Virus record (IMG/VR): IMGVR_UViG_3300029288_000151
Span: 1 to 64,000 of that record
Reading direction: 5' to 3' (one strand)
Length of the DNA stretch: 64,000 nucleotides
DNA from: a virus
Taxonomy: Duplodnaviria > Caudoviricetes
Part shown: one piece after another, positions 19,443 to 41,269 of the stretch
Numbering within the stretch: position 1 is the first letter of the stretch
How the letters are laid out: every line of letters begins with the position of its first letter
Program-made: the position numbers and the translations under genes
Notes under the pieces: generated by a model
What the model saw: only the letters and a program-made list of their open reading frames with translations
What the model was told of the DNA's origin: nothing
The model's database searches: none

Positions 19443-19450
19443 TTGTTTCC

Positions 19451-20219: not shown

Positions 20220-20235
20220 AAAATCCTCGTATTAA

Positions 20236-23600: not shown

Positions 23601-26600
23601 TATAGAAGCAGCTTCTTTCATTACGTGGATCTTTACATTGGCTTCTAGATTCTTTGGATCATTATATCCAGCAATCGTTGCGTCTTCCAGAGAATCGTCA
23701 TAGACATAGAACTCTGGTGTTAATGGAACATCAAGGCCAGGCATATCTGGCAGATATAGATCCATATAACACTCGCTCATCTGACCATGGACAACACTCA
23801 TCAAATACTTATAAACATCCTCTCCAAAATAGGACTTAAAGGAAGCGGAATCTCTTCCGGCATAAGCCATTGCCCTATCGGCAAGTTGACCAAGCTTGGT
23901 TAAAAGTTTTCTATATCTCTGAGAAGCTTCTCGGCTAGAAGCGTCATAGTTTCTATAGATCTCAAAACCTCGAACCTTCCCTTTGCCGACAATCTCTACT
24001 CCTGTTCCTCCAATCAGATTAATCGCTTCTTGCCCCAGCTCTTTGGCGATCTTTTGTTCCCATGTAGCAGCCTCGCCTTTAACTTTGACTGGCGTATTCA
24101 TCAAAGGAAATCCTTTAGAAATTTCCTTTACCTCTCTCGCTAGATCATTAGCAATTGATGACAACCAATCGGGGCACTTGGGATCTTTTAACTTAACAGA
24201 ATGCAGATCACTTGCCGTTCTCAGTTGAGAGTAGAACATCATTGACAACATCTTGTCCTGCATCTCTTTCGTCGCTTTATCGGCTATAGCAGGATTCAAC
24301 CAGTCTGTCGCAGTAGAAGCCGTAATCCCAATTAAAGTAGATGCTTTAGAAAGAGCAGTCGAATAATGATCTGCTGTTCTTACTAGATTTATATTGCCAG
24401 TGAGCACATTAAAGATCTGCTCTCCAGAAGAACCAATAGGATGTGCATCTAGATATTTTCTTATCGCCTCGTTTTCATCTGCTTTTAATAGAGACAATAA
24501 CCGTTTCCCGATCGCCATCTTGATCTTCCAGTCAATAGCGCCACGCTGATCAAGCTGTTCTTTCCGGATATCCTGCGCGACGAACTCAACAACGAAGTCG
24601 TATAAGTCTACTGACCCTTCTGTTGATTGTTCAGAAGTTTCGGAAATCACAATATTTTTTATCTTCGCCAAAGAGAAGATATTATTAATACTTGATGGTT
24701 GTTCGTTGTTCTGCCAACCAACCTGGATAGAACCAGAACCAAGGATATTGCTAAACGTTCTTGAGATGGCTTGTGTCTCTTCAACCATCCTCTTAAGATT
24801 CCGAATAGCAATACGTCCTTCTTCTCCGCCAGCTCTAAAGACAAGAGTTCCTGCTCTATTGCCAGCACCCAAGAATTGCCAAGCACAGCGGTCTTGACCA
24901 ATAAGCTTCATCTTGGCAAGACGATGACCAAAAGTAATTGTGGCGGCAGCAAGAGCAATATTGGGCATTGAATGGCTAGTATCCCCGCCAACGATAAGAG
25001 GATCTGGCACTTGCCAGAATACGTTTCTAACAGAAGGGTCTTCGGTATAAAGCTCCCACCCAGCAGCTCTCTGATTAGTTATCCACTCTGTCCGTTTCTC
25101 TACACTCCTTGTGTCCTTCTCCCTTCTTTGCTCTTCCTTTTCTATCTCTTGCTGAGCTTTGAAATCGTCAACAGTCTCTTCCTGTAAGTCTACTTGCTCG
25201 TCAGCCGTTTCTGTCATTGCAGAATCAGCTAATTCTTCTGAGCGAGAAGGAGCTGGTTTTGGCTGAACAGATTCTGCATTGATAGTAACGTCACTATCAC
25301 AGATTGCCCCATCGTTAGAGGAGAGGATCCTCACTCCGGGAGAGAGAACTGTTTTTGCTCCATGCGCGGATAAGTATAAGTTACCATAATAAATAACAGG
25401 AGGAACTCGTTTAGAGTATTCCTTGTCTATATCCTTATTCGCCAAAGTTAGTCCCGGTTCCGCAAAATCAGTATAACCTATGACGCTTGTAGTATATTCA
25501 GAACCTTTGTACCCTTTTGCAGTCTTATTTAATAACCTTACTTTCGCCGTTGGCATTGGGATTAAACCAGCAGCAAACCGATTGACAACGTTTCGAACAG
25601 ACGGGGGAAAATCGTTCCAGGTAGATTCTTGTGTCTTTTTCTTGTTCTTATCTCCATCAGACCACGCAGAAGGATCTTTCTTCTTCCAGGCAGTACGGTT
25701 GAGAGGTTCTGAATAAGCCACCAAGAAGCGTCCAAACCTTGAGCCTCCAACACACATAAACCTTTGGAACATCGCCCAAAGCATCCAAGCATATTCGCTT
25801 GTTCTTCTACTCGCTTTACTTTCTGTCCATGACCGTGTTTCTCCAGCACAAAGACGTGCCATCATAAATCGATCATAATCGGTTATCCAATAAGAAGGAT
25901 GAGTCCCTCCTGTAAAACGACCTTGTTTTAAAGTTCCACCGGCACTAGCAGTAGTCGAAAAATCCTGTGAAGCATATTTTTCTGCAGCAGTAGGAGCTTC
26001 TGCCCCAGGAGTCTGACCAGAACCAGAAGTCTTATTTCTCGCATCGAAGAACGGAGGAATGGCCTTAAAACTTGTATCCGAACGGAAGAAGTCTTTCGCA
26101 CTTCCAGCTCCAGCATAAGCCTCTGGAGATGTTGGGTTTATATACTTGAATCTGACCCAAGAGAAAGAGAGGAAGTCATCATTGTGTTCCCCACAGAGAG
26201 GCATCAGGCTTTCTAGATGGTCGGCGTAGTACATCCAAGTTTGAGAATACATTGGATATACTACCGGCGTATTTATGCCATTAATTACTGAATCTAGTTG
26301 CGCTGCACTGGCCGCCTTAGCGAAAATACTTGCCGAGTAATCCTGAGTCTCATAAGTATTAAAACCTGTTGCTTTTACCGTGGACTCGTCATTGTCTTTA
26401 ACATCTTCTTCCCCAGCCGTTGGCTCTTCTACTGGCACTGGTAATTTGGCGTTATACCAAAAATGCTTTGAGAATGGGGCATAGTTAAAAGACGCTAACT
26501 GTAGATCAAGATATACCGTACCGGGCTGATCTGCGCTTACGCGCATAGCTCCAGTATAGAGGACAAAGATCATATTAGCATCAGATGACGGACAAAGAGA

Positions 26601-26993
26601 TTCTCTGACTTTATTGTTTTCTATAAATACAAAAGGGTGATGGATAAGCTCTGCTATAAGTCTACGAAGGACAACGGTCTGTTCTGATCCTTCCTTGAAC
26701 GCCAAAGTAAAATTAACGAATCCTACCTCTTGCCCTTTCGCTTCTACAACAGGAGAAGATGTTCTGAGCGTCTCTGCAACGAACACATCTGAAACATTAT
26801 TGATTTTAATTGATGTGGCCGGGACACTATCAAAAACTATGTCGTTGATTACAAGGAAATCTGACGGCAGCTTCCTAACGGATTCACGCGCCGAATATTC
26901 GACTTCTTCTCCTGAGTTCTTAAACGCAATGATCTTCTCAATCTCTGCGTTTTGAACTGCTCTTTGCTGGTAATCGTTTGTAGTCTTGGCCAT
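20649..26993 (-). CDS. Large baseplate hub protein (gp27-like C-terminal region) with putative cell-wall hydrolase insert
   Basis: 2114 aa. The C-terminal LQDGVKVQIRLGY...VFLGQIVEI...EILCQGYGAEL is a hub/late-control-D pattern. The internal MMARLCAGET...WAMFQR resembles SleB/Hydrolase_2. Confidence 0.6.
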   Translation of the reverse strand: MAKTTNDYQQRAVQNAEIEKIIAFKNSGEEVEYSARESVRKLPSDFLVINDIVFDSVPATSIKINNVSDVFVAETLRTSSPVVEAKGQEVGFVNFTLAFKEGSEQTVVLRRLIAELIHHPFVFIENNKVRESLCPSSDANMIFVLYTGAMRVSADQPGTVYLDLQLASFNYAPFSKHFWYNAKLPVPVEEPTAGEEDVKDNDESTVKATGFNTYETQDYSASIFAKAASAAQLDSVINGINTPVVYPMYSQTWMYYADHLESLMPLCGEHNDDFLSFSWVRFKYINPTSPEAYAGAGSAKDFFRSDTSFKAIPPFFDARNKTSGSGQTPGAEAPTAAEKYASQDFSTTASAGGTLKQGRFTGGTHPSYWITDYDRFMMARLCAGETRSWTESKASRRTSEYAWMLWAMFQRFMCVGGSRFGRFLVAYSEPLNRTAWKKKDPSAWSDGDKNKKKTQESTWNDFPPSVRNVVNRFAAGLIPMPTAKVRLLNKTAKGYKGSEYTTSVIGYTDFAEPGLTLANKDIDKEYSKRVPPVIYYGNLYLSAHGAKTVLSPGVRILSSNDGAICDSDVTINAESVQPKPAPSRSEELADSAMTETADEQVDLQEETVDDFKAQQEIEKEEQRREKDTRSVEKRTEWITNQRAAGWELYTEDPSVRNVFWQVPDPLIVGGDTSHSMPNIALAAATITFGHRLAKMKLIGQDRCAWQFLGAGNRAGTLVFRAGGEEGRIAIRNLKRMVEETQAISRTFSNILGSGSIQVGWQNNEQPSSINNIFSLAKIKNIVISETSEQSTEGSVDLYDFVVEFVAQDIRKEQLDQRGAIDWKIKMAIGKRLLSLLKADENEAIRKYLDAHPIGSSGEQIFNVLTGNINLVRTADHYSTALSKASTLIGITASTATDWLNPAIADKATKEMQDKMLSMMFYSQLRTASDLHSVKLKDPKCPDWLSSIANDLAREVKEISKGFPLMNTPVKVKGEAATWEQKIAKELGQEAINLIGGTGVEIVGKGKVRGFEIYRNYDASSREASQRYRKLLTKLGQLADRAMAYAGRDSASFKSYFGEDVYKYLMSVVHGQMSECYMDLYLPDMPGLDVPLTPEFYVYDDSLEDATIAGYNDPKNLEANVKIHVMKEAASIDNYIYNSLFGGTYASVNATKIRETKINMNEQFGIEYGFSNWLSGGEYSVFNNLGATINLGFALRAQQVNSFMYDTVQFAAGMFGKSVTFSPSDLLSKYSVLSAKQGTLEEQAFDGFLNTTILMSPYLTNYLDKGIRSQLSVQDKKQAIENIKASVYGTVTKDGVVEVPKEFLVGPNVDSLETDRGLNGERNIPEAESDRSDLQGTSENNNQIIASSSSAEITSKIAETKQTLNKIASVPATTIDTATLVSRSIAELSVGSRKKDISMRRAYPTFRIYFIDEDSEQGTKNYRAFDDFYSYSSIQEIRVIRSRKVAADLAIIRMTNVAGILLRKRFGETEDQILANEKAVEDATGFFAETSRENPFANMILQDGVKVQIRLGYANDSEVLETVFLGQIVEIEPNEDGKILEILCQGYGAELEASTVGAFEEDVTFYSSMQALSAAIIQPFVMHFGRQDFNPTYNPAEVRSQLTGGYGTDLLSLNPLDSWAQASMNVMLKKNNFLNQPQDDNIFPPPYTVYSGAGDRVWNNACAYRPLMITPWEIFKEHELRHPGYVSLAVPYGHSPRMTMFFGPKGQNYWSRACTIQESIISTLWTDQISSYGKLSGNLKEIMNNPNTKQKLAALSKINPDLYKAIITSGNNIDNRSLGFYLGRIFGRYRPFRNYFMATSEYHILKNEIRTSVQNTFNAVEVRYSNDEDVKDETSNEREAKEYTEMVEMGESGTYTMKLNDNIPDHMIRKYEAVYPSCITEMMAKRYAQGLLIEGLKDSYKGELVLIGEETIKPYDIICLQDNVNDMYGPIEVEQVIHIFNQEEGFISIITPDMVVDSNDWATKGWFDSMFNTISMLWLSSSDAARQKATQVSLFDKMKDTVLYGKNSTMNAMGKAGMMIGAFFLMHHSQTGNPVTMNPLYFGGKPFTSIAAASKYSSSFANLWGQWVQWSEDFEDGYDRTDISESLATINWNILDSIAGGWFNASQDPNVGGNL

Positions 26994-26995
26994 AA

Positions 26996-29900
26996 TTACA
27001 TCTGTTCGTGAATTTTGTTAGCGAGCATACGAGGATCCATAGCCGAACGATTATCGTTAACATGCATCCGAGCATTAACACTAGAAGAATTCATAGAAGA
27101 AGCATACCTCATTGCCCCATTATAATCCTTATCCAAATCACGAGAGTCATAACTGCCAGTCATTCTTGAAGAAGGGAGAGAATAGGTTCTAGGACTTCGT
27201 TGTATCCTGGCCTTTGGAATCGACATTCCCGGTCCAGAGGGAGGCATGGAATTCATCATGTCCACATTATGGCCACCAGCAGGGCCTTCCTTGTTTGGAT
27301 TTTTAAGAGAACCAGAGACAGCTGGCGCAGACATCATTATAGCAGCCCCAGCTAAAGCCCCCAAAACCAAAGGCTTTTTAGCTCGGGACATAACCGAAGC
27401 TACTTGTGAGGCTTTATTGGTTAATCCTTTTATCCTTCTAGAAGCCATAGATAAGATGTTTCCTTCTCCTTCCTCAATACCACGAACCATTCTTTGTCCT
27501 ACGTCAAGACTCAGTCCTTCCCTAGAGAAAGCAAGATGTTCAGCCATCCTTTCCCTGGTCAGCTGGCGGCTTCCTTTGCTAGCGGCGGCAAGCTCATGTG
27601 ACAACTCAACTTCTCTCTGAGACGCACGCAATGCCTCAACAGAAGTTCTGGCTGCTTTAGTAGGACTGTAATCTAAAGAATAGGACTTCCCCTTTAGCTC
27701 AGTAGATAGCTCTCTGCCTTCTCCAAAGACATCTCTAAAAACACCAGCAAGGGCATCTTCGTCTGCCGTCTCAACCGCCGCGCCAAGACGCTTATAAAGG
27801 TCTGCCCCAGCAACCATACCGTGCTTGGCATTGATACTGGCCCTTTCTTCTATGTGCCAGAACATAGCAGCAAGCTCGTTATAGTGCTCTGGTTTATTAG
27901 CGGAAACTGCTAACTTCATCTTTTGTAATGCAATATTCGTTTCTCCAGCAGCCATCTTCCCATAGGCAGCAGTCCGAGCTTCTGCCTGTTCAGCAGCCAA
28001 TCCTCGGAGAGTAGCGCCTGGAACTTCTTTCTCTTTGATTGCCCGATCAAGCATATAATGGTTAGCTAAATACTTATTATAGTTCTCCTGTATCTCATTA
28101 GTAGTAAGCCGACTTACCCTACTCTCTAAATCTTTATTCTTAATGAAGGAGGCAGTAAGCATATCTTTGTCATAGTCAGCCTTCATCCCCACGTCTTGAG
28201 AAAGGTCAGTCAATACATCGCCAACCATTCCCATCTCTCGCGGAGTATAGATCATATAATCCTTGGCTTCTCTCATCATTCGGAAACGAGAAGCCTGAAT
28301 GCTTTCTGGCGATACATGAGGATGTCTACCAAGCATTCCTCCAATATCTTCTCCAGCGACAAACCTTTCTCTCATGGCTCGAAGGCCTTCTTGGTCTGCG
28401 GCAGAAGATCTCTCAATAAGCTCGTCAAACATTTCTTCGCCAGTTCTACGAGAGATTCCAGCTGCTCCTCCCATCCTCTCTGTCATCTCTTGGGACATCC
28501 TCTCCGCCGTAAGCTGTCGGGTCCCATAAACACGAGAGGATGCACTACTAAGATTGGCGTATTCACGGAAACCAACATCTCTTAGATTCTTTGCTGCCGC
28601 CTCTATACTTTCTGTCTCTCCTCCTGCAGCCGCCTGTAACTCTCCGAAAGCCTTGGACAATTCAGACTGGAATACTTCTCCCTTGGCAGAGACAGGAAGC
28701 ATAGCCGACATTTCAGACATACCAGGTCGATATATTCTAGAGGCTCCTCCGAAGGCCTCGACTCCTTTCCCTAAATCAAGCCACTGGCCAGCCTCTCCTA
28801 CTGGCCCGGCCTTATTAATAGCAACAGCTTCTGGACCCAAGAGTGCTTCCAGTTTACCTGGCCCCATGCCAACAAGAGACTCCTGCATCCTTTGGGCTGC
28901 CAGAAGACCCTTTGGTTTCTCAAACCTGGTAACGATATCGGCGGCTAAATCTGAACCAAGTGTTGCGTCTCCTGCATAACTTTTCTGTGCCAACAAACGG
29001 ATGCCTGCTGGGTCCATCTTCATACGTCCACCGGCACCTCCTTCCATCGGGAGGTCACCAAGGAACATACTTTCAAGGCCATAGACACCTTTTGATCCAG
29101 AGATCATTTTTGTCTCAGCCTCAGATAACAATCCTTCTTCTGCCATCCTGGCTAATTGTGCCTGGGGGATCATGCCAAAGATAGAAGGAGCATGCTCTTC
29201 TCCCATAAGACCAAGTATCCTTGCCCCGCCAACAATCCTCTTCTGCAAAATGTATTGAAGTTCTTCTGTAGAAACCTGGCCAGCAGAAGCAGCTGCCTCG
29301 TTAAGACCAAGATAGTTGACTTGGTTCGATAAGAATCCTCTTGCCGCCGGAGAAGCTTTTCTCCAAACATCTGCTTTATTAATATCAAAATTATCTAGTC
29401 CCTCTGCCGCGAACAAAGACATTGCTGACATCTGCTGTGCAAACAAAGCATACGGTGTTTTTGCTAGCCGCTCGGCGCTCATAAAAGCATTAACTGTGTT
29501 CCCGCCAATTGCTGTCTTGGCCCCCGCCGCCACTGCACCAATCATCTCATTGATTACTCTTTGATCTTGTGCCTTCATCATGTTCTTGGTGGCATCGCCA
29601 AACATCTTACCAATCATGCCTTCTTGCATGCGGTATTTCTCTCGCAGGTAAACGGCGACAACATCTTTCTTTACCGGACGAGCACCAATTATTTCCTGCG
29701 TTATCCCCTCTACCCCTCCACCACGAACGGCTCTACCTTCTGCACCAATACCAATCATCTGACCTTGATTAAGAGGGACAGGAGAAGATAATTTTATTGA
29801 TTGTCCAATTTGAAGACCATTGCGATTTGCTTCGATTACTTCTTGGACAGCCTGGTTTATATCAAGTCCCGGCGCATAACGGATCTGCTTTGACACAACA

Positions 29901-31465
29901 CGCTCAAACTCCATTGTTCCAGAAACTTTTGTAGAAATTAGTCCCATCTCTTTGGCAAGCGCTTCTCTTGCTGCCGCAGACTCGAAACCTCCGGCTCCTG
30001 GTTTCGCATAGAAGGTTAGTAATTGAGGAGCGACATGGGCTTCGCGACCAGAAAAAGATAAAGCTTTCTGTGTTTCGTTTGATGCCCAATCACCAAGTTC
30101 TGTCTCTATCCCCATTAGCCGATTGTATTCTGGCCCAACGAAAGGTCTTTCTAACCGATGCATGTATTTCCCTAAAGAGCCAGAAAACCTAAATCGATCG
30201 CCAGAAGCAAGAGCTTTCGCTTCTGCAGAAAGGCCCCACTCTTCTCTAAGGAATCTCAATGGCATTTGGCTGGTTGGGAACATCTCTCCAAGAGCATTTC
30301 CATAAAGCATCCGACGAACATCTTGTCGGTACAGAGTTCCAGAACCAATCGCTCCTTGGCTTGTCCCACCAAACAACCCAGAAGCCAACGCCTCGTCTAA
30401 GACATCAGGAGTCATATTCTTTCCAGAATACACAGACTGAAGAGGGATTAGCTTCCTCTTGGCAAGTCCACCAGAAGTCAGGAACTCTTCTGGGTGTTGC
30501 CAAATTGCTAATCTTTTCCCAGCTTCATTCGCATTCAGATTATCTATTAGTCGTGCATTGGTATTGATAACAGCATGTTTCGCCGAACGGGCTTTGTCTT
30601 TCTCGGCACGGAGAGCAGACAAGTAAGACTCAGCATATCCTATCGCCTCTAACCCTTTCGTGCTCCCTCTGGAGAGGTCATAGCCTTTGCGCAAAACATA
30701 TCGCTGTTCAAAGTTTTTACCTAGTGGCAAGATATCTGTTTCGCCCAATGGCAAGTCTATCCTTGCAGAAGAACCCTTAACGTTAGTCCTCATCATTCTA
30801 ACGCCACCAACAGAGACAAGAGACGACTTGCCGATACTCTTCTCTCCAAGGATCTCTTTTAAAGAGGCCTGAATCTTTTCGTAAGCTGCTCTCTCTCCGC
30901 TACTTAAACTTCTAAGATCCACTCTGTCTGGCCGGGACGGGAGGATTGCCTGAGAAATTATTGTGGCTCCAAACTCCTTATTGTAAACATTGCCTCTTGT
31001 TATCTTCTCTATCTCTTTCTCAAACAGATTCGCGTTCCCACCATAAGCTCCAATTGTTTTAGCTGCTTGTCCATATGCTTCTAATGGAGTACTAGAGTTA
31101 GCCAAAATTCCCTGAAAGGCAGCATAGGCTTGTTTGTGGGCCGTCGGTTTATTCCCGGCCATTATGGATTCGTATGCCGCACGAGCGATGTCGTGCTTCA
31201 TCTCTCCATGATTAGCAGAACCAGTAATCATATTCCCAAAGTATTCTAACGGGCGGATCTCCGAAGTAACTGCTGGCTCTACAAGGGAACCTAACTCTCT
31301 TACTCTTTTCGCCGCTGAAGTATAATCATAGAGTGGTCTTTTAACCGCAGTTGCAAGATCCTGCCAGTGGTTGCGCATGCCAATACCGAACCCTATTATT
31401 GGCGCGGCAGCAGCACTAGCACCCCATAGACTTGATCTTTCTTCTATATCTTGGTAGGTCGCCAA
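26996..31465 (-). CDS. Putative single-polypeptide two-barrel (beta/beta'-like) RNA polymerase, probably virion-associated
   Basis: 1489 aa, TTG start. Ordered matches to E. coli RpoB/RpoC motifs: [11 protein letters not shown]~[36 protein letters not shown]~[33 protein letters not shown]~[21 protein letters not shown]~[25 protein letters not shown]~NRAPTLHRLGIQA; ADYDKD~ADFDGD. Confidence 0.8.
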   Translation of the reverse strand: [1489 protein letters not shown]

Positions 31466-31466
31466 A

Positions 31467-34400
31467 TTAATTTCCTAATACCTGATATGATTGATCAACA
31501 AGACCTTGTCTTCTATCGTTTATAACAATATCCAATCTGCTTCCAATATTAGCATTTATCTTACTATTCCGGATAGTTCCTCGATCGCTAGATCGAATAA
31601 ATCTACCGAAAGCATACAGATTGTTAAGAGACTGTCCTTCGTCAACCATAGATTGTTTTAGATTGTCTGCACTTTCAAGCCGCGAAACAACGTCAGAATT
31701 TATATACGGCTTCCTGGACAGCGACTGCATCCTATCTTGCCAGAGATCGAAATCATGATTGTCCGAATTATGGACAACACCACAAATTGTTGTATAGAAA
31801 TGAGGCTCCCCCATGTCAAAATCATACAGAATAGGATCATTAATAATAATTTTCTTTTTGTTAACACCGAACCAAAAATACTTTTCAAGTTCATCAGAGA
31901 TAGCACAAGTTTCTAAATAATCTTGTTGTCTTACTTCTTTGCATAACAAGAAAGCAATCTTTGCAATATGATCCCCAATATTAATTCTAAATGCAGGACT
32001 TGTGCTCTTATAAGAAGAGGATGGCCTCACTTTTATAAATTGGAGCCGAGATCGTATCCCTAAACTGTTTAGCAGATTCCACCCCTGTCTACCAAGTGTC
32101 TCTGAACTAGTTTGGATAGATATGTTTTTAGGCAGAGATAAACATTTCCTCTTATCAACAAAACCATCACCAAAGAACCAAGATCTTAAAAAATATAAGA
32201 TTGTCTCTTTGGGTAGTTTAAAAAAGTCTTCTGTTAATGTCTTGGTTGTCGCTTTGTCTCCTGTACAAAATAATTTAACAACAGAAGCTGCAATAGCACT
32301 ATGCACCCTCACAAGAAGCGCATCGGCTCCATTTGGATCGGGAGAAATTGTTGTGTTCGCATTAAACATTCTTTTTGCATATCTAGAAATTTCTTCAGCC
32401 TCTTCTGTTTCTTTTGAGGACAAACTAAAAATAACTGTTTTAAGACGTCCTCCTTTTGTTTTTGCACAATACCCTTCTGCAACATACCATCCTAGAAAAC
32501 TTCCGAAAGAGGCATCTAGTTTAAGCATCCTCTGATGTTTTTTGCCTTTAATCCCATAGGAGAAGATCTCCTCGTCATATTTTACTGCATTACTTTTTAC
32601 TAATGGCAATAAATCAATTTCTTCTTTTGACTCTTCGAAAAACAGTTTAGGATAAATCATTTTGTCTCTTGGTCTAATCTTGTCTACTGGTATTTTAATT
32701 AATCTATATTCTTTTAAATACTGTCGAACGATAGGAACGATATGATTTCCTGTGATGACAATGGAAGCATCAAACATCCCTGAATTTTTCAACTTGTATG
32801 TATTGTTGTCGTTCTTGTGCATAAAAATTTCTTTAACTCCGGTGAGATACCCGTCCGAATTTATTAACTTTTCCCCAGCACGAATATCTTTCGCAAATCT
32901 AACAACGCCCACTCCAGATAATATTTTAGAGTCTCCAGAAATACAACCTTCCATCTGTAAATACTTAGCTTCTATGTCTTTCAAATCGACTGATGGTGAC
33001 CAGGCTACCCACGAAGGATCGGGAAGCGAACGAGTAGCGAAATACTCTTTAAGCTTCTTCTGTCTTAGCCAATCGGCAAAAGACATCTTGCCGCCAGTTT
33101 CGCTAAGCCATTGTTCTTCCTGCTCTTTGTCGTAACTTAGTCCTTCAGACTTTCTGCCTCTTATGATCTCTGAGATCATCTGGACGTCTTCGTTCGTAGC
33201 TCTCTGAGCATCTATCTTAGCTCTAATCGCAGCAGCCTTTTCTGTTATCCATCGGGAGGCGTAGATCCTTTGCTCGTCGCGCGGGACAAGAGAAAGAATT
33301 TGAGCCCGCTCTTCCTCTGTCTTTGCATCAGAGAAAGCCGAATAGAAATCTCTTTCGTTCCGGGGGAGAGCCCTCATTGCATTTGTTGGATTAGCAAACG
33401 GATCTACCCCGAACAGAGTTTGATCCATTTGGCGCTCATAGGCGCCTGCCTCTTTATATCTTCCCTCTTCCATAGCCTCATCGCGAAGCTTTTGGGATTT
33501 CACATATTGAAGTATGTCAAAATATTCTTGGACAGATCTCTTCTTCTGTATATATTCAGGGATCTCCTCGTCACCAAGACCAGCCTCTGTCATCTCCTTT
33601 GCTGGCAGCAAGAAGTTCTCAATCGGTCGATCCCAGAAAGCGGAACCTGTTCCAATGGCTTCTTCTGCGACGTAGGTCTCAATAGCAGAACGTTTTCTAA
33701 TAAGTTTTGCCGCAGGACTAATAGGAGTTAAATACTCAAGCGGCGTTTCCACTGCTCTAGACGCCCATTCCCATGCCGCACCAGCAGCGCGCTCTCTCGA
33801 CTCGTAGCGCAACTGTTCAAATTCATCTTTAAGTTCCGTACTTTCGGCGATCCCTTCTTCTGCGAAAAGACTTCCTAAGTCCCGATCTCCTATCATGGGA
33901 ACGCCACGAATAGTGCCGCCTACTCCCATGTTCCACATCCGAGATTCCATGGTCGGAACAGCCAAATCTATTTTCCTACCTTGGAGAATCTCTCTTGCTT
34001 GTTCTTCAGACTTAGAAGAAAGCATAGCCCCTATGCCTTCTGCGTTTATTACCGCCCGCCCGAACTCTTCTGTCGTAAATTTACTTGGAGAGATTACGTC
34101 CTTAACGGTGACAGGGATTGTCTCTAATAGGTCTTCGTCAAAGCGGTACTCATCAAACTCACGTCGCGTCTTCCTCTGCCGAACCTGTTCCCTGATTGTC
34201 TGGATCATCATCTGTTGATTTTCAGGCAAGGAATCACGGCTCGCCATGGCCCTCTTTAAAGTAGAGTCGTATTCGGGACTCCAGGGAGCAATATCAGCGA
34301 GGATCTTTAAGCGATAAGCAAGAGGATAATCTTCTGGATCTAAACCTTCGACTTCAGGATTTAACGCCGCGAACCCCGAGCCCGGCATCCGGATCTCTGC

Positions 34401-37400
34401 TTCTGAAATATCAGCGAAAGGATTACCTTTTCTTACGTCAATAAAATAATCTCTTGGCAGCCAGGAAGCCATCTCTGCTTCAAGAGGATTATATTCGTCA
34501 AGATATGATCTGGTATGAGGAATAAATCTTCTCACGGGCTCCGACATCGTAGCAGCCCCGCCGAGATTAAGATGCTTCCAAAGCCAATATTCTCCTCCAG
34601 TTTCCTTCCCCATCGTACCAACGGTCTGAAGGTTCTGGAACAATTCCTCTCTGCCGGTAATACCTTTCTGTAATACGCTCGAAGCATAACCCATCAAACC
34701 AACCGCTTCTCTGCGTCTATACAGAAGCTCGTTGAATAATTGAGTTCCTTCTTCGGGCAATACAGGAGCGCCGGGACCTAGCCCTCCTAAGGAGTAATCT
34801 GGCTCTGTCTCTGCTGGTCTTGGGCCAGGATGATGGACATACTCTCCATTACCCAACATCCACTCATCCGGACGTACGAACTTTCTTGGTTTGAGAAGTC
34901 TCCCCGCTGTGGCTGCGATAAGCGGCCCAACAAAGGGAACGTCCTCTCCCCAAGTCCCTGTGAGCGGCGAGGGACGATCATATTGATGAGTCATTTCGTA
35001 GTGATACTTCCAGTCATCACTGCCGAACAAAGCTTTTAACGGATGTAAAAGCGGATCGTATTCCCAGCGTTCGCTTTCCTCTCCATAGATACCTTTCTGA
35101 TAGGCTCTGGTCCTTAGTCTCTCAAGCGAGTGCTTCCTGTAGTACTCAATAGATGAATTATGGAGGGTTATCCCTGTAGAAAGGAAACTATTGCCTTCCT
35201 CGACTTGTATGTCCCAAACTTCTCCTTCGTAATGTATTATTTCTATCTTATCAATCTTTAACAACCATCCGTTCGATATCTTTATTTTCCTAACACTCGA
35301 ATAGTTAGCCTCGTGCTTCCCTGGTTTTGGATCTTTCATTAGGGAATACAATCGTTCTGCATCAAATCCAGAAATTGTAAGCTCATATGCCCTGTGTATC
35401 TTTTCCCCATTTGGAACAGCAGCAACAAGCCTACTGTTAGAACTAGATCCTATTCCTTTAGAGGCCATCAACATTTGAATCTGTTTAAGCAACACCGGAG
35501 TAGAAAGACCGATATTGCAACTACAGGCATATGGCTTTGGAGAACCGTCTCCATTAACAAAAGCCTCTAAAAAACCATTAATAAATTCTTCTGACGCATT
35601 GAGAAGGATAGGATTTAATTGTTTGTCCCCTTTCCTTGCTGTTCCAGGACATAAGGAAGACAAGATGTGTTTTAATACTGTACTATAACTATCAATAATA
35701 ATTCCGTTAGAATCTCCTTGAGGATCAATCCTATATGTGCAATTAAATTTATTTAATAACCTAAAAATATCATTGTGATATTTTGTCTCATTTTTGTGAA
35801 AAGAAAATGAGACTGTGCCATTATCTTTGTCAATATTTCCTTCTGCCGCGTAATACCCAATAAGGCTTCCAAAATCATAATCTAACTCTATCTCTTCTGG
35901 CCAAGTATCAATCAATCTATACCCTGCAAATACCGCAGTTCTTGTCTTCTTCCTTAGGTCGCTCAATCTATTTCTAATATACTTTACAGAAACACTGAAT
36001 TGGCGAATAATTTCGTTCTGTCTCTCTCTTCTGACAACACTTCTCCGCGGCAACATTCCCCATTCGACAATTTGGTCATCAAGTATTTGTTGGTCATCTT
36101 TGGCCAAGGCGCAATTATTTGCTTTCACATAAACATTTCCTCTATAAATTTTATATCCATCTTTCGGCAAACAATCTATAACCTTTATTGTTACAATGGA
36201 TTTACTAAAAGCCAACTCTGGGATAAAAAGACAATGATTCGTTGTTAGTTCACTAGCAGGAATCCAATTTAGCCGAATAGACTTCTCTTCTCCCTGATTA
36301 TATTCTGACAAGTCATAAGCTAAAACCTCATGATTCGCAGTGACTTTTGTTGTGTCTGTTCTGTCCCAAGGAGAATAAATCTTAAAAACTTCTTCGCTTA
36401 CCCTCCTGCTAGCAATATTCAAAACAGTAGTCCGTTTCCCTTTATAATTAATTACTTGATCTCCAATTTGAATTTTACAAATTGGTTTGATTGTCCCATC
36501 TGCCATTAATATGGTTGAATCACTCGTCAAGCAACCTTCATACTTGCTTGATCTTCCCGCTTCCCACCAGCGTCCTTTCCTGATAGCAACATCTTTCTCG
36601 CCAGAATAAACAGCTTCTAGCTCTTCCGGGTTTTCTTTGGAACCTAATAGATTAAGTCCCGGAATTGCTGCCATAAAATTACCAGACAGGAGAGACAGGC
36701 CACTAGATAATGCTGTCCAGGCAGCAAGTCCGCCAATCGCACCGGCAAGAGTTGGGCTCTTTACCCCGGCCAAAGCTTTCCCAATAAATGGGATATCTTT
36801 TACGCGACGTCCAACTTTGCTGGCCCAAGAGGAAGCAAAAGACTCTTCTCTACTAACACGGAGAGAGTTAAAGATCTCATTGAATGCCTTACCTTTGTTG
36901 GTATATTTTTCTTTAGCCGCCGCATATAGCAAACCACCATATCTTCCAGTGCCAGCCATCAGTCCGCCAACGCCAGCAAAACCTAAAGCAGATTGCCACG
37001 AAACAAGACCAGGAGTTACCTGATCCTGCCGCCGGAGAGATTCGCCCAGACCTATCTTCTCAGAGATAGAAGCCCTAGTGACGTCAACGTCCGCTAGCGT
37101 CCTTCCTATCCCATAGAAGAAACCCTGATCGAACTTAGGAGCAAGCGAAGAATAAAGACCAAGAGCAGCACCAGCCACAAGCCCTTTCCTTGAGAAAGGT
37201 ACAGACTTGGTCGCTCTAAAAGCAACTCCTCCAATAGCAGCCCCAAGTCCAGTCCCTACGAGAGGAGCTAACGGAGAACCTGAAGATCTTAAATAATCAT
37301 AATATTCAAGCCCTTTCCATGCGCCGCCAAGGAGAAGACCCTTCTTGATATACCGGCCGATCATCTGGCTCGAAGTGCCAGGCTCGATACCAATCTTGTT

Positions 37401-38237
37401 GAGGATAGGAATCCTGGAGAGAGCATTCCCAAGAACAGGGATTTCGAAAGGCTTGCTTAAAAGATTGTTTAACCGACCAACAGTACTTGCCGCCCTTGCC
37501 CTGAAGAAATTGGCAACAAGTTCCATCTGGGCAAATAACTTCTGGGTGCTTTCTTTAAGACTTACCCTTGCACCAAGAATATTTAACTCAGGACGTAATT
37601 TCGTTATAAGTGGAATCCTTGGTTCTTTCTGAGCCAAAGGATCCCAATTCCTATAAGGAAGCCCTTTCTTGAATTCTTCAAATGGGATATCAGGTGCTAT
37701 ACGGGCCCAGGATGCCCTCAGAGCCCCTTCTTTAAGAGAGACATTGCTCCCTAGCTCCATCCCTTGAACTCGGGCGTAGTAGTCCGCTATGGCCGCTCCA
37801 CGCTGTGTTCCAGAAGCAACTTGCATAGAGTAGCCGACAAGATTACCAGATTGGTCTCTTACCTGGCCAAGAATAGACCCCGTTCTGTAGATATTCGCTC
37901 TAGTTACTTCGGGACCAAGAGCATTCCGCAGATATTCACTGAAGACATTGTTGCCCTTGAGGAGATCACTTGTAAGCTCTACCCGTCTCCAGGACTCTAA
38001 TGGGGATAGGGTTTCAGACAGGCGGAAGGTCTTGAAGATTGCTCCGGGAGTCGCTTCTTCAAACGAACGGATCCCCTGGATATAATGATCCCAAAGCCTC
38101 TTCTGGCCGATTGGGACAAAACCACTCGCTGCGAATGCCGCTGTGGCGGCGCCAACACCAAGAAGATTAGACGGGTCCTCTCCTGGGATTACAGGCTGTG
38201 TGCCGGTTGCCGTAATTGGGGGTTGCTGTATTGGCAA
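31467..38237 (-). CDS. Tape-measure-like protein containing two inteins (about 1404 aa after splicing)
   Basis: 2256 aa, TTG start. Follows the tail chaperones. Has several Gly/Ala-rich hydrophobic segments and two C...HN/S intein blocks. Confidence 0.75.
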   Translation of the reverse strand: MPIQQPPITATGTQPVIPGEDPSNLLGVGAATAAFAASGFVPIGQKRLWDHYIQGIRSFEEATPGAIFKTFRLSETLSPLESWRRVELTSDLLKGNNVFSEYLRNALGPEVTRANIYRTGSILGQVRDQSGNLVGYSMQVASGTQRGAAIADYYARVQGMELGSNVSLKEGALRASWARIAPDIPFEEFKKGLPYRNWDPLAQKEPRIPLITKLRPELNILGARVSLKESTQKLFAQMELVANFFRARAASTVGRLNNLLSKPFEIPVLGNALSRIPILNKIGIEPGTSSQMIGRYIKKGLLLGGAWKGLEYYDYLRSSGSPLAPLVGTGLGAAIGGVAFRATKSVPFSRKGLVAGAALGLYSSLAPKFDQGFFYGIGRTLADVDVTRASISEKIGLGESLRRQDQVTPGLVSWQSALGFAGVGGLMAGTGRYGGLLYAAAKEKYTNKGKAFNEIFNSLRVSREESFASSWASKVGRRVKDIPFIGKALAGVKSPTLAGAIGGLAAWTALSSGLSLLSGNFMAAIPGLNLLGSKENPEELEAVYSGEKDVAIRKGRWWEAGRSSKYEGCLTSDSTILMADGTIKPICKIQIGDQVINYKGKRTTVLNIASRRVSEEVFKIYSPWDRTDTTKVTANHEVLAYDLSEYNQGEEKSIRLNWIPASELTTNHCLFIPELAFSKSIVTIKVIDCLPKDGYKIYRGNVYVKANNCALAKDDQQILDDQIVEWGMLPRRSVVRRERQNEIIRQFSVSVKYIRNRLSDLRKKTRTAVFAGYRLIDTWPEEIELDYDFGSLIGYYAAEGNIDKDNGTVSFSFHKNETKYHNDIFRLLNKFNCTYRIDPQGDSNGIIIDSYSTVLKHILSSLCPGTARKGDKQLNPILLNASEEFINGFLEAFVNGDGSPKPYACSCNIGLSTPVLLKQIQMLMASKGIGSSSNSRLVAAVPNGEKIHRAYELTISGFDAERLYSLMKDPKPGKHEANYSSVRKIKISNGWLLKIDKIEIIHYEGEVWDIQVEEGNSFLSTGITLHNSSIEYYRKHSLERLRTRAYQKGIYGEESERWEYDPLLHPLKALFGSDDWKYHYEMTHQYDRPSPLTGTWGEDVPFVGPLIAATAGRLLKPRKFVRPDEWMLGNGEYVHHPGPRPAETEPDYSLGGLGPGAPVLPEEGTQLFNELLYRRREAVGLMGYASSVLQKGITGREELFQNLQTVGTMGKETGGEYWLWKHLNLGGAATMSEPVRRFIPHTRSYLDEYNPLEAEMASWLPRDYFIDVRKGNPFADISEAEIRMPGSGFAALNPEVEGLDPEDYPLAYRLKILADIAPWSPEYDSTLKRAMASRDSLPENQQMMIQTIREQVRQRKTRREFDEYRFDEDLLETIPVTVKDVISPSKFTTEEFGRAVINAEGIGAMLSSKSEEQAREILQGRKIDLAVPTMESRMWNMGVGGTIRGVPMIGDRDLGSLFAEEGIAESTELKDEFEQLRYESRERAAGAAWEWASRAVETPLEYLTPISPAAKLIRKRSAIETYVAEEAIGTGSAFWDRPIENFLLPAKEMTEAGLGDEEIPEYIQKKRSVQEYFDILQYVKSQKLRDEAMEEGRYKEAGAYERQMDQTLFGVDPFANPTNAMRALPRNERDFYSAFSDAKTEEERAQILSLVPRDEQRIYASRWITEKAAAIRAKIDAQRATNEDVQMISEIIRGRKSEGLSYDKEQEEQWLSETGGKMSFADWLRQKKLKEYFATRSLPDPSWVAWSPSVDLKDIEAKYLQMEGCISGDSKILSGVGVVRFAKDIRAGEKLINSDGYLTGVKEIFMHKNDNNTYKLKNSGMFDASIVITGNHIVPIVRQYLKEYRLIKIPVDKIRPRDKMIYPKLFFEESKEEIDLLPLVKSNAVKYDEEIFSYGIKGKKHQRMLKLDASFGSFLGWYVAEGYCAKTKGGRLKTVIFSLSSKETEEAEEISRYAKRMFNANTTISPDPNGADALLVRVHSAIAASVVKLFCTGDKATTKTLTEDFFKLPKETILYFLRSWFFGDGFVDKRKCLSLPKNISIQTSSETLGRQGWNLLNSLGIRSRLQFIKVRPSSSYKSTSPAFRINIGDHIAKIAFLLCKEVRQQDYLETCAISDELEKYFWFGVNKKKIIINDPILYDFDMGEPHFYTTICGVVHNSDNHDFDLWQDRMQSLSRKPYINSDVVSRLESADNLKQSMVDEGQSLNNLYAFGRFIRSSDRGTIRNSKINANIGSRLDIVINDRRQGLVDQSYQVLGN
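31767..32945 (-). mobile_element. Intein 2 in tape-measure-like gene (393 aa, LAGLIDADG endonuclease)
   Basis: MEG|CISGDSKIL...CGVVHN|SDNH; LAGLIDADG-like blocks FLGWYVAEG and SWFFGDG; AT-rich. Confidence 0.93.
35157..36533 (-). mobile_element. Intein 1 in tape-measure-like gene (459 aa, LAGLIDADG endonuclease)
   Basis: YEG|CLTSDSTIL...GITLHN|SSIE; block B TANHEV; blocks LIGYYAAEG and AFVNGDG; AT-rich. Confidence 0.93.
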
Positions 38238-38250
38238 CTAGGATCACGTC

Positions 38251-38919
38251 CTATTTTCTGACAGCCATCTTTCTCTTCAAGTCCATCAACTTTTGCATTC
38301 GGTCTGGATCATTCTTGAGATTGCCCTTCATCTCATTGAGATCCCTCATGTCTCTTTTCGCCATATTTACTAGATCATCTGCGCTCTCTGTTTTCTTTGT
38401 GCTCGCTGTATTCGTAAATTCATATGGATTCGGAATCATTCCAGTCTCTAACATCATGGCTTCGGCCTGGGCAAAAACATTAATGAGTTCTTGATAACTT
38501 AAATCATTAATAGTTTCAAACGTATAGCCACTGAAGACAGAACAGATAATCCTCTTCATCATTGTCGTTGGAGAATTGACTGTCCCGCGACAGATATCCA
38601 GGAACTCTAATGTATATTTTACCTTATCGGAGCCAATACCCGACAAGTAAAGGATCAGCTCTGCCACGGAATGAATGATCCCGGCAGGAATCTCTATGTC
38701 TTCAAATGCCCGAATCTCACTGACAACGCACTCTCTAAAGATTTCTTCGCGGATAAGGGCCTTGACTCCAAGGCCGGAAGAGAGCATCAGGGCAGCGGCA
38801 TAATCTTCGGCTCTTTTGTTACCCGGCAATTTGAACGGGACTTCGCCCCATTCACCAAATTGGACAATGAAGAGCTTGCCTTTGCCCTTCTGCGACGAAA
38901 GCTGAAGGACACTTTCCAT
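38251..38919 (-). CDS. Tail assembly chaperone-like protein 2
   Basis: Immediately upstream of the tape measure; paralogous to 38926..39501 (RECVV...IPAGIIHSVAELI). Confidence 0.6.
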   Translation of the reverse strand: MESVLQLSSQKGKGKLFIVQFGEWGEVPFKLPGNKRAEDYAAALMLSSGLGVKALIREEIFRECVVSEIRAFEDIEIPAGIIHSVAELILYLSGIGSDKVKYTLEFLDICRGTVNSPTTMMKRIICSVFSGYTFETINDLSYQELINVFAQAEAMMLETGMIPNPYEFTNTASTKKTESADDLVNMAKRDMRDLNEMKGNLKNDPDRMQKLMDLKRKMAVRK

Positions 38920-38925
38920 AATTGA

Positions 38926-39501
38926 TTACAGCTTGATTGTGCGCGCGGCCAACACCTGAGGTTCGATGAACAGACTGCAAGTGCGGATCTGAGCAGCCAG
39001 AGTTGGAATTGCTCCTGCTGGCAAAGAAGCTTTCTGAACCGGACTATAATTCGGGTACAGAAGACACCTCTCAACGATCATGTCCTCTACCTGGTCTTCT
39101 CTGACATCTTCTGCTAAAGAAGTAAGCAACTTGATCCACTCTTGCCTGCGAATGTAACGATAACAATAAATCACATCATAGATTTCAACAACGAATACAC
39201 TGCCGAAATTCTGCTTCCACACGGCTAGTTGCTGGAGGTTGGGTGCGTTCGCATCATATTTCTTTATCAGGGCGGCGACCTCTTCGAGCCTCTTCTGTGG
39301 ATCGCTCGACAAAGCCGGAATCTCTTCCTGGCCTTCCTGTCCTGGCCCAGCTTCTTGCTCAGGTTCTCCAGGGACAAACCCCGCTTCCTCCATAGCAGCC
39401 ATCTCCGCCTCGACATCGATCTTGTCAGGGGCACCAAATCCTGCGGCAGCTAATGCGGCTGGCGAATTAAACTTCTTGGGCGTTACCTTTGGGTTAACCA
39501 T
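38926..39501 (-). CDS. Tail assembly chaperone-like protein 1
   Basis: Lies between tube genes and tape measure; WKQNFGSVF...YRYIRRQEW...ERCLLYP...LPAGAIPTLAAQI; GGAGG RBS. Confidence 0.65.
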   Translation of the reverse strand: MVNPKVTPKKFNSPAALAAAGFGAPDKIDVEAEMAAMEEAGFVPGEPEQEAGPGQEGQEEIPALSSDPQKRLEEVAALIKKYDANAPNLQQLAVWKQNFGSVFVVEIYDVIYCYRYIRRQEWIKLLTSLAEDVREDQVEDMIVERCLLYPNYSPVQKASLPAGAIPTLAAQIRTCSLFIEPQVLAARTIKL

Positions 39502-41230: not shown

Positions 41231-41269
41231 GCTCTTCCTAGCGAAGAGGAGGTGTTTATAAACAAATGT

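What the first reader, a model, noticed from the sequence alone, without database searches (positions are those of the whole stretch)
26996..38237. RNAP gene sits between tape measure and hub and has tape-measure-like hydrophobic ends: possible tail-delivered transcription system
Seen: the gene order is chaperones, tape measure, putative RNAP, hub, spike, all in one late operon. The tape measure and RNAP genes both start with TTG and are separated by 1 nt. The RNAP core is bracketed by Gly/Ala-rich hydrophobic segments (WGASAAAAPIIGFGIG at the N-terminus; KPLVLGALAGAAIMMSAPA near the C-terminus) resembling those of the tape measure. Its length (1489 aa) is close to that of the spliced tape measure (~1404 aa). 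Established: N4 and crAss-like podoviruses eject virion RNAPs, and phiKZ-like phages package multisubunit RNAPs in the head. Inference: this myovirus may store an RNAP, possibly unfolded, in or at the tail lumen as a co-tape-measure, inject it ahead of the DNA, and tether it to the membrane. I do not know of this arrangement being characterised.
Basis: inference. Interest (0 to 1): 0.8.

Follow-up and report, generated by a model that had tools for sequence, protein, structure and literature searches.

The report
RNA polymerase in myovirus tail slot
A 1489-residue gene among the tail genes of an uncultured giant contractile-tailed phage very probably encodes a one-chain relative of the cell's own RNA polymerase; the phage probably carries it in the particle and injects it to start transcription, as shown so far only for an unrelated Thermus phage.

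Summary
On the minus strand the order is sheath, three tube paralogues, two chaperonin homologues, a 2256-aa two-intein gene, a 1489-aa gene, then the hub. Both large genes start at TTG and lie 1 nt apart.

The 1489-aa protein matches no Pfam, PHROG or PDB sequence. Its roughly 89 metagenomic relatives keep K620, K627, R1047, P1049 and D1097/D1099/D1101. The AlphaFold model (pLDDT 89.5, pTM 0.91) matches RNA polymerase beta-like subunits in its first half and beta-prime-like subunits in its second. Over its whole length it matches QDE-1 and RDR2. It is a single-chain two-barrel RNA polymerase.

All 16 related loci inspected (17 fetched) and Acinetobacter phage ME3 (gp036) share the gene order. 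The C-terminal membrane helix and tail motif match gp146 of Bacillus phage 0305phi8-36, a mass-spectrometry-confirmed virion protein annotated as tape measure. Virion carriage and injection are therefore likely but untested.

Two corrections:
- The neighbour called "tape measure" is a gp145 homologue with a compact predicted fold.
- Thermus phage P23-45 gp96 (2024) is a characterised precedent.

This scan has noted the same kind of gene in at least 47 other genomes. Verdict: new variant of a known kind.

The parts
26996..31465 (-). 1489-aa single-chain two-barrel RNA polymerase gene (P0001). It occupies the slot of 0305phi8-36 gp146 and ME3 gp036.
27386..30793 (-). Modelled polymerase core, aa 225-1360. 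First half is beta/Rpb2-like, second half beta-prime/Rpb1-like.
   Evidence: AF2 pLDDT 89.5, pTM 0.91. VIA Z 9.4-12.2 to RNA polymerases. Foldseek reported 104 PDB hits at E<=1e-3, and all 49 listed rows are RNA polymerase transcription-complex entries.
29567..29797 (-). Beta-like double-psi barrel, about aa 557-633. Carries K620 (29606-29608) and K627 (29585-29587).
   Evidence: K620 invariant and K627 in at least 90% of 57 sequences. Strands at model residues 333-409.
28145..28345 (-). Beta-prime-like double-psi barrel, about aa 1041-1107. Carries R1047-x-P1049 (28319-28327) and the DYDKD triad (28163-28177).
   Evidence: R1047, P1049, D1097, D1099 and D1101 invariant in 57 and in 67 sequences. 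DPBB matches at model residues 755-900.
31376..31429 (-). N-terminal Gly/Ala-rich hydrophobic patch of P0001, aa 13-30.
27311..27373 (-). C-terminal transmembrane-like helix of P0001, aa 1365-1385.
   Evidence: Aligns with the TM segments of ME3 gp036 and 0305phi8-36 gp146.
26999..27064 (-). Conserved C-terminal tail motif, ..V-N-D-N-R-S-x-x-D-P..L-A-N-K-I-H...
   Evidence: Matches the C-terminus of gp146. A similar I-x-I-x-D-x-R-x-x-L ends the gp145-like protein (weak).
31467..38237 (-). 2256-aa gp145-like virion protein (P0002) with a 1404-aa extein.
35157..36533 (-). Intein 1 of P0002, aa 569-1027, with a LAGLIDADG/Hint domain.
31767..32945 (-). Intein 2 of P0002, aa 1765-2157, with a LAGLIDADG domain.
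20649..26993 (-). 2114-aa baseplate hub, homologue of ME3 gp037. Positional counterpart of 0305phi8-36 gp147, the T4 gp27-like hub.
38251..39501 (-). Two tail-chaperonin homologues, 38926-39501 and 38251-38919.
   Evidence: BLASTP to ME3 gp033 and to 0305phi8-36 gp143/gp144
39524..41929 (-). Three tail-tube paralogues, homologues of 0305phi8-36 gp140-142.
41952..43874 (-). Tail sheath.
18180..19906 (-). Baseplate wedge genes (W-like and J-like).

Best explanation
Shown. ORF 26996-31465 encodes a single-chain two-barrel (double-psi beta-barrel) RNA polymerase. A beta-like barrel carrying two lysines is followed by a beta-prime-like barrel carrying RxP and a DxDxD magnesium site. The gene is a fixed member of the tail module in a lineage of large myoviruses related to Acinetobacter phage ME3 and Bacillus phage 0305phi8-36. 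It always lies after the two tail chaperonins and the gp145-like protein and before the hub. The core is framed by an N-terminal hydrophobic patch, a C-terminal membrane helix and a conserved C-terminal tail. The C-terminal helix and tail are shared with 0305phi8-36 gp146, a virion protein annotated as tape measure.

Inferred. The protein is made late, built into the tail interior or tail tip through its terminal modules, and expelled through the tube on sheath contraction together with the gp145-like protein. Its hydrophobic segments anchor it at the membrane entry site. There it transcribes the first phage genes as the DNA enters, independently of host polymerase. This is the mechanism proposed for Thermus phage P23-45 gp96.

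Marked limit. The predicted core is a compact protein of about 125 kDa. My own estimate, not computed here, is that it could not pass a tail tube of about 4 nm while folded. Tail-lumen storage would therefore need an unfolded or extended state.
For: Catalytic residues. K620, R1047, P1049, D1097, D1099 and D1101 are invariant, and K627 is kept in at least 90%, across 57 sequences that fall to about 16% identity. R, P and the three Asp are also invariant in the 67-row alignment. Every member has DxDxD.

Fold. The AF2 model has pLDDT 89.5 and pTM 0.91. All 49 Foldseek PDB rows listed are RNA polymerase transcription complexes, nearly all chain D or A, the usual beta-prime/Rpb1 chain. VIA-align gives these matches:
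- model 1-640 to beta/Rpb2-like chains, Z 10-12.2;
- model 643-1124 to beta-prime/Rpb1-like chains, Z 10-11.5;
- whole length to RDR2 (Z 12.0, 480 aa), QDE-1 (Z 10.5, 510 aa), P74-26 gp62 (Z 9.4) and P23-45 gp96 (Z 7.3).

Synteny. The gene order is identical in 12 loci and in the 4 loci inspected of 5 fetched for a subfamily at about 20% identity. ME3 has the same order.

ME3 gp036. It has SREP...GGDHDQDQ, matches the family profile and matches the model in BFVD.

Link to a virion protein. The C-terminal TM and tail match 0305phi8-36 gp146, which is a virion protein by mass spectrometry.

No second polymerase found. A complete relative (197.7 kb) shows no PF05183, PF00940, PF00623, gp99 homologue or second family hit.

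Precedent. P23-45 gp96.
Against: - No experiment exists for any family member. Virion presence is inferred from a weak C-terminal match to gp146 (hmmsearch domain E 1e-5 against only five sequences; hhalign probability 18%) and from position.
- gp146 of 0305phi8-36 and its Moorella phage homologue have no DxDxD. The shared slot therefore does not always hold a polymerase.
- A folded core of this size conflicts with simple storage in the tube lumen.
- No repeated promoter-like 12-mer was found in the complete relative.
- The Gly of DFDGD is Lys here, and the R-to-D spacing is 50 aa against 35 in E. coli beta-prime. Activity is not guaranteed.
Confidence: 0.62

Rival explanations
1. It is an active RNA polymerase and a virion protein, but it is carried in the head or in a baseplate or neck cavity as an ejection protein, as in N4 and crAss-like phages. 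It is not in the tail lumen. Its place in the tail operon reflects only late co-expression.
For: The predicted core is compact and globular and, by my estimate, too large for a tube lumen if folded. crAss-like phages also encode their virion polymerase next to tail genes (PMC10770324 discussion).
Against: The position immediately after the tail chaperonins and before the hub is strictly conserved. The C-terminal module is shared with the protein annotated as tape measure in 0305phi8-36. Protein-language-model look-alikes are tape-measure clusters, though weakly at 0.88-0.90.
Confidence: 0.2
2. It is an active polymerase that is not packaged: a late-expressed non-virion enzyme serving late transcription or replication priming. 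Its membrane segments would have another role.
For: There is no direct virion evidence for this family. Two-barrel enzymes also include RNA-dependent polymerases, and QDE-1 and RDR2 are among the best whole-length structural matches.
Against: An enzyme needed for gene expression would not normally be encoded only inside the latest structural operon with translational coupling; the flanking gaps are 1-2 nt. The positional counterpart in 0305phi8-36 is in virions. The terminal hydrophobic and TM modules are unexplained by a soluble cytoplasmic enzyme.
Confidence: 0.08
3. It is chiefly a structural tail protein, a tape measure or tail-tip plug, that keeps a relic polymerase fold without catalysis.
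For: It occupies the slot of the protein annotated as tape measure. Family length is narrow, median 1466 aa. The protein evolves fast, about 30% identity where neighbours keep 45-66%. The catalytic loop lacks the usual Gly.
Against: Both barrels keep all catalytic residues invariant down to about 16% identity, which indicates selection on chemistry. The predicted fold is a full polymerase core, not a coiled coil.
Confidence: 0.07

Closest known systems
Thermus phage P23-45 gp96 (also P74-26, G20c, TSP4): tape-measure-fused virion two-barrel RNA polymerase (PMC10770324; PDB 8H2M/8H2N)
   Same: A two-barrel polymerase with a DxDxD site, encoded in the tape-measure position of the tail module and associated with membrane segments. 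It was proposed to be ejected through the tail and to transcribe the first genes at the entry pore. The structural match is Z 7.3 over 327 aa.
   Different: gp96 belongs to a siphovirus. It is one 5002-aa chain with the polymerase at the N-terminus of a long tape measure that also carries a metallopeptidase. Here the phage is a myovirus. The polymerase is a separate 1489-aa protein with short terminal modules, no peptidase, and a large conserved partner protein upstream. Structurally it is closer to RDR2, QDE-1 and P74-26 gp62 than to gp96. No second (non-virion) polymerase was found in a complete relative.
0305phi8-36 gp146 ('hypothetical tape measure protein') and Acinetobacter phage ME3 gp036 ('hypothetical protein')
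   Same: The same slot between the gp145/gp035 homologue and the hub. The C-terminal TM helix and tail motif are shared. ME3 gp036 also has the lysine barrel, REP...DHDQD and a matching predicted fold.
   Different: gp146 is 2537 aa, has no DxDxD and shows no detectable polymerase core. 0305phi8-36 instead has a separate QDE-1-like polymerase, gp99. ME3 gp036 has never been annotated as a polymerase; the 2021 jumbo-phage survey lists two-barrel enzymes only for its group 1, 0305phi8-36 and phage c-st.
QDE-1 / RDR2 / YonO-type single-chain two-barrel polymerases (Pfam PF05183)
   Same: One chain with the beta-like barrel before the beta-prime-like barrel. These are the best whole-length structural matches: RDR2 at Z 12.0 over 480 aa and QDE-1 at Z 10.5 over 510 aa.
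   Different: There is no sequence match to PF05183. The protein is larger, has membrane-associated termini and lies in a tail module.
crAss-like phage virion polymerase (phi14:2 gp66) and N4 virion polymerase
   Same: Virion-carried, injected polymerases that start infection. crAss gp66 is also two-barrel, with a non-Gly catalytic loop (DFDID).
   Different: Both belong to podoviruses, and the protein is carried in the head or muzzle. The N4 enzyme has the unrelated T7-like fold. gp66 did not appear among the 50 best VIA matches, so that comparison is inconclusive.

Membership tests
Two-barrel (DPBB) RNA polymerase superfamily | Beta-prime-type barrel with a DxDxD metal-binding triad preceded by RxP | tested here: met
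   R1047, P1049, D1097, D1099 and D1101 are invariant in the 57- and 67-sequence alignments. All members have DxDxD.
Two-barrel (DPBB) RNA polymerase superfamily | Beta-type barrel supplying two basic residues to the active site | tested here: met
   K620 is invariant and K627 is kept in at least 90%. Both lie on strands of the first barrel in the model.
Two-barrel (DPBB) RNA polymerase superfamily | Overall fold of the polymerase core | tested here: met
   AF2 pTM 0.91. All 49 listed Foldseek PDB rows are RNA polymerase complexes. VIA Z 9.4-12.2 to 17 RNA polymerases, with the model's two halves matching beta-like and beta-prime-like subunits separately.
Two-barrel (DPBB) RNA polymerase superfamily | Template-dependent RNA synthesis | not testable with these tools
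   Needs biochemistry.
Tape-measure-fused virion RNA polymerase (P23-45 gp96 type) | Polymerase covalently fused to a long tape measure with TM and metallopeptidase domains | tested here: not met
   It is a separate 1489-aa ORF with one TM helix and no peptidase domain. No longer fused forms were found, which is weak evidence.
Tape-measure-fused virion RNA polymerase (P23-45 gp96 type) | Presence in virions | not testable with these tools
   Only indirect: the positional counterpart gp146 of 0305phi8-36 is a virion protein by mass spectrometry.
Tape-measure-fused virion RNA polymerase (P23-45 gp96 type) | Specific structural kinship to gp96 | tested here: inconclusive
   Z 7.3 over 327 aa, lower than to RDR2, QDE-1 and P74-26 gp62.
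Phage tail tape measure protein | Encoded between the tail chaperones and the hub | tested here: met
   It is the second gene after the chaperonin homologues and lies directly before the hub. It occupies the slot of 0305phi8-36 gp146.
Phage tail tape measure protein | Sequence match to tape-measure families (e.g. PF10145, PF20155) or tail PHROGs | tested here: not met
   No Pfam or PHROG hit. Only weak language-model look-alikes at 0.88-0.90.
Phage tail tape measure protein | Length proportional to tail length | not testable with these tools
   No virion images exist for this lineage. Family length is narrow, 1253-1584 aa with median 1466.
RdRP / QDE-1 / YonO family (PF05183) | Match to the Pfam model | tested here: not met
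   No hit at E<=0.1. There is none in the record or in complete relatives either.

The most novel reading that the evidence does not exclude
In this myovirus lineage the protein in the tape-measure slot is itself the phage's only RNA polymerase. It would be stored extended in the contractile tail's tube together with the gp145-like protein, fired through the envelope, refolded at the membrane, and would make the whole early programme independent of host polymerase. The slot would then be a cargo position whose middle part can be exchanged: a polymerase in the ME3-like clade, and something else in 0305phi8-36, which keeps a separate polymerase (gp99).
Probability: 0.3. Interest if true: 0.8.

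Novelty: new variant of a known kind. Interest (0 to 1): 0.62.

Why it matters
Tail-associated delivery of a cellular-type RNA polymerase has been shown experimentally in only one small group of Thermus siphoviruses.

This family extends the principle to a widespread lineage of large contractile-tailed phages. It has about 89 clusters at 50% identity and no annotation in Pfam or PHROGs. The architecture also differs: a separate protein, with a conserved partner.

The family includes a cultured phage, Acinetobacter phage ME3 (gp036, annotated 'hypothetical'). Virion proteomics, rifampicin tests and cryo-EM are therefore directly possible.

It also raises two questions:
- How does a protein of about 125 kDa pass through a tail tube?
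- Which protein measures the tail in the 0305phi8-36 lineage?

It supplies a very diverged polymerase core for studies of polymerase evolution.

Tried and rejected
- Pfam, PHROG and PDB sequence searches with the protein and with a 57-sequence profile gave nothing relevant.
- tblastn of the protein against 50,697 phage records found no match.
- A word-indexed search found only one relative. The exhaustive HMMER search was needed.
- The hypothesis that the upstream protein holds the beta-like half of a split polymerase was rejected. Both barrels lie in the 1489-aa protein, and the upstream protein's model shows no polymerase match.
- A second, non-virion polymerase was sought in a complete relative and in ME3 with PF05183, PF00940, PF00623, 0305phi8-36 gp99, the family profile and the RxP...DxDxD pattern. 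None was found.
- A 798-aa ME3 protein that matches the model weakly in BFVD has no acidic triad.
- No exact 12-mer occurs six or more times in the complete relative, so no obvious phage-specific promoter was found.
- Longer fused forms were not found (weak evidence).
- Paralogy of the N-termini of the two large proteins was not supported (hhalign E 0.023). The C-terminal motif similarity is weak (E 0.0016).
- The two chaperonin homologues are not detectably similar to each other.
- Single-protein locus searches for distant family members failed. An alignment of that subfamily worked.

Full report
What is there

The window is part of a 74.7-kb IMG/VR virus record judged 39% complete. Genes run on the minus strand. 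From 43874 down to 18180 the order is:
- tail sheath (41952-43874);
- three tail-tube paralogues (39524-41929);
- two small ORFs (38251-39501);
- a 2256-aa ORF (31467-38237);
- a 1489-aa ORF (26996-31465);
- a 2114-aa hub (20649-26993);
- two small ORFs (19881-20649);
- baseplate wedge genes (18180-19906).

Both large ORFs begin at TTG with an AGGA about 10 nt upstream. They are 1 nt apart, and the hub follows after 2 nt. The 2256-aa protein carries two inteins with Hint/LAGLIDADG domains at aa 569-1027 and aa 1765-2157, which leaves a 1404-aa extein.

Relatives and gene-by-gene correspondence

The sheath places the phage with the jumbo myoviruses Acinetobacter phage ME3 and Bacillus phage 0305phi8-36. 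The module is collinear with 0305phi8-36 gp139-gp147 and ME3 gp029-gp037. The correspondences are:
- tube paralogues match gp140-142;
- the small ORFs match the 'tail chaperonin' genes gp143/gp144 and ME3 gp033;
- the intein-bearing protein matches gp145 and ME3 gp035, 'virion structural protein', found in 0305phi8-36 virions by mass spectrometry;
- the hub matches ME3 gp037.

The 1489-aa gene therefore sits in the slot of ME3 gp036 ('hypothetical') and of 0305phi8-36 gp146. [quoted passage not shown]

The 1489-aa protein is a two-barrel RNA polymerase

It has no Pfam, PHROG or PDB sequence match. An exhaustive HMMER search of 1.84 billion representatives found 89 relatives, mostly 1430-1580 aa long.

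In a 57-sequence alignment that falls to about 16% identity, ten columns are invariant. Six of them are K620, R1047, P1049, D1097, D1099 and D1101, and K627 is nearly invariant. The same R, P and three Asp stay invariant with 67 sequences. Every member has DxDxD, in forms such as DFDKD, DYDGD, DKDAD and DTDGD. This is the signature of the beta-prime barrel (NRxP...NADFDGD) and of the paired lysines of the beta barrel.

An AlphaFold model of aa 225-1360 built on this alignment is confident, with pLDDT 89.5 and pTM 0.91. Foldseek against the PDB gave 104 hits at E<=1e-3. All 49 listed rows are RNA polymerase transcription complexes, nearly all chain D or A. The Foldseek-independent aligner gave these matches:
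- model 1-640 to beta/Rpb2-like chains: phiKZ non-virion polymerase Z 12.2, vaccinia Rpo132 Z 12.1, Pol I A135 Z 11.9;
- model 643-1124 to beta-prime/Rpb1-like chains: human Pol I Z 11.5, M. tuberculosis beta-prime Z 10.0;
- whole length to single-chain enzymes: RDR2 Z 12.0 over 480 aa, QDE-1 Z 10.5 over 510 aa, P74-26 gp62 Z 9.4, P23-45 gp96 Z 7.3.

Isolated double-psi barrels match model 755-900.

The pattern RxP(25-60)DxDxD in ORFs of 350 aa or more is unique to this gene in the window, in a complete relative and in ME3. I take the polymerase identity as very likely (about 0.9). Activity itself is untested. The loop has Lys where cellular enzymes have Gly, and the R-to-D spacing is 50 aa against 35.

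Is it a fixed part of the tail module?

Yes. Twelve IMG/VR loci with relatives at about 30% identity all show the same order: sheath, tube x3, chaperonins, gp145-like, polymerase, hub, wedge. So do the four loci inspected, of five fetched, for a subfamily at about 20% identity with a DKDAD loop. ME3 gp036 has SREP...GGDHDQDQ, matches the family profile at the lysine barrel and at the C-terminus, and its BFVD models match my model at E 1e-6 to 1e-5.

Terminal modules and the link to a virion protein

Across the family the core has no membrane-like segment (1 of 57 sequences). An N-terminal hydrophobic patch (33 of 57) and a TM-like helix about 120 aa from the end (40 of 57) are common. The last roughly 20 residues carry a conserved motif..I-x-I-R-D-D-R-S-x-L-D-P..L-A-x-K-I...

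The family profile matches the last 150 aa or so of 0305phi8-36 gp146, including the TM helix and the ..N-I-S-D-D-R-S.. tail. The support is modest: hmmsearch domain E 1e-5 against five sequences, and hhalign E 0.0013 at probability 18%. This is the same short C-terminal stretch that Hardies et al. found conserved among gp146 homologues.

The gp145-like protein ends with a similar I-x-I-x-D-x-R-x-x-L (hhalign E 0.0016). That is suggestive of a shared docking signal, no more. Language-model look-alikes of the protein are 'tape measure' clusters at 0.88-0.90, a weak lead.

The neighbour is not a typical tape measure

The gp145-like family is much better conserved than the polymerase, at about 50% identity against about 30% in the same genomes. 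It has many invariant Trp, Gly, Pro and Arg residues, and inteins often occupy it.

An intein-free relative (aa 191-1390) folds with pLDDT 83 and pTM 0.79. The first 330 or so model residues are long helices. The closer homologues align with the window protein's hydrophobic segments (extein aa 25-44 and 322-340) at roughly the same positions. The rest is compact, with a staphylococcal-nuclease-like OB domain at model 712-822 (Z 9.0, rmsd 2.3, 99 aa). Foldseek supports this only weakly, at E 0.01. Nothing resembles a known tape measure.

Which of the two slot proteins sets tail length cannot be decided here. Both scale by a similar factor between ME3 and 0305phi8-36: 1263 to 1930 aa and 1603 to 2537 aa.

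The slot does not always hold a polymerase

0305phi8-36 gp146 and its Moorella phage MTATph1 homologue, which is interrupted by a transposase, have no DxDxD and no detectable core. 0305phi8-36 has instead a separate QDE-1-like polymerase, gp99, near the genome end.

Conversely, ME3 has no gp99 homologue and no second RxP...DxDxD ORF. A complete 197.7-kb relative with terminal repeats has neither of these, and also shows no T7-like polymerase, no canonical beta-prime domain and no second family hit. This complementary pattern fits a polymerase either carried in the tail slot or encoded as an early gene. It rests on few genomes.

How it most likely works

Shown: an intact two-barrel polymerase core with membrane-type termini, encoded in a translationally coupled late tail operon, in the slot of a known virion protein.

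Inferred: it is incorporated into the tail interior or tip through its termini, expelled on contraction with the gp145-like protein, anchored at the inner membrane, and transcribes the first genes as DNA enters. This is the model proposed for P23-45 gp96.

The main difficulty is size. A folded core of about 125 kDa would not, by my estimate, fit a tube lumen. So either it is stored extended or it sits elsewhere in the particle (rival 1).

What is known, and novelty

Chaban et al. 2024 (PMC10770324) showed that P23-45 gp96, a 5002-aa tape measure, carries an active virion two-barrel polymerase at its N-terminus.

Their survey table of viral two-barrel polymerases has no Acinetobacter phage entry. 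The 2021 jumbo-phage survey lists such enzymes only for its group 1, 0305phi8-36 and phage c-st. I found no paper that calls ME3 gp036 or this family a polymerase.

The present case differs from gp96 in several ways: the host virus is a myovirus, the polymerase is a separate 1489-aa protein, it has a conserved partner protein, it is structurally closer to RDR2 and QDE-1, and no second polymerase is apparent. I class it as a new variant of a known kind.

This scan has already noted the same kind of gene many times: 56 findings in at least 47 other genomes, with follow-ups reaching similar verdicts. The finding is real but not unique to this window.

Noticed in passing
window 31467-38237; relatives: The gp145-like protein is an intein hotspot. 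There are two inteins here, and relatives range from about 1390 aa (intein-free) through about 1770 and 2165-2256 aa to 2610 aa (L013). Site 1 lies in the invariant motif GRWWE-x-GRS-x-x-YEG.
   Followed up: partly
L008:5808-9980 (model residues 712-822 of aa 191-1390); equivalent region of window 31467-38237: The gp145-like virion protein contains a staphylococcal-nuclease/OB-like domain (VIA Z 9.0, rmsd 2.3, 99 aa; Foldseek E 0.01) inside an otherwise unmatched, confidently predicted fold.
   Followed up: partly
window 56924-60223 and 53520-56906: The portal ORF (1099 aa) and the next ORF (1128 aa) carry inserted segments. These hit intein-bearing or HNH PHROGs (thymidylate synthase, ribonucleotide reductase, HNH endonuclease), which suggests further inteins or homing endonucleases in structural genes.
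   Followed up: no
L046:1225-6258 (Microcystis phage MaMV-DC ORF65, 1677 aa): This protein matches the polymerase model in BFVD (E 2e-5) and has QRTP...(about 40 aa)...EGDADGDQ. It is a probable cryptic two-barrel polymerase annotated 'hypothetical', and it lies outside the tail module.
   Followed up: partly
BFVD hit A0A8S5SD80_1: The best viral structural match (E 1e-11, TM 0.40 over 1257 columns) is a 'Minor tail protein' of an uncultured siphovirus, ctnpt50. This hints at further tail-protein polymerases in other phage groups.
   Followed up: no
L047:11070-18426 (Moorella phage MTATph1): The gp146 homologue appears split by a transposase insertion (CDS0028). The downstream fragment (CDS0031) ends with the I-Q-D-N-S-type tail motif.
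   Followed up: partly
ME3 record 224453-226849 (minus strand): A 798-aa ORF near the right genome end, presumably the 798-aa BFVD entry A0A172Q0S6 (matched by length only), matches the polymerase model weakly (E 8e-4). It has no acidic triad, and its nature is unclear.
   Followed up: partly
loci L003-L014 versus window: The polymerase evolves faster (about 30% identity) than its neighbours in the same genomes: tube 1 about 66%, sheath about 55%, gp145-like about 50%, hub 31-47%.
   Followed up: partly
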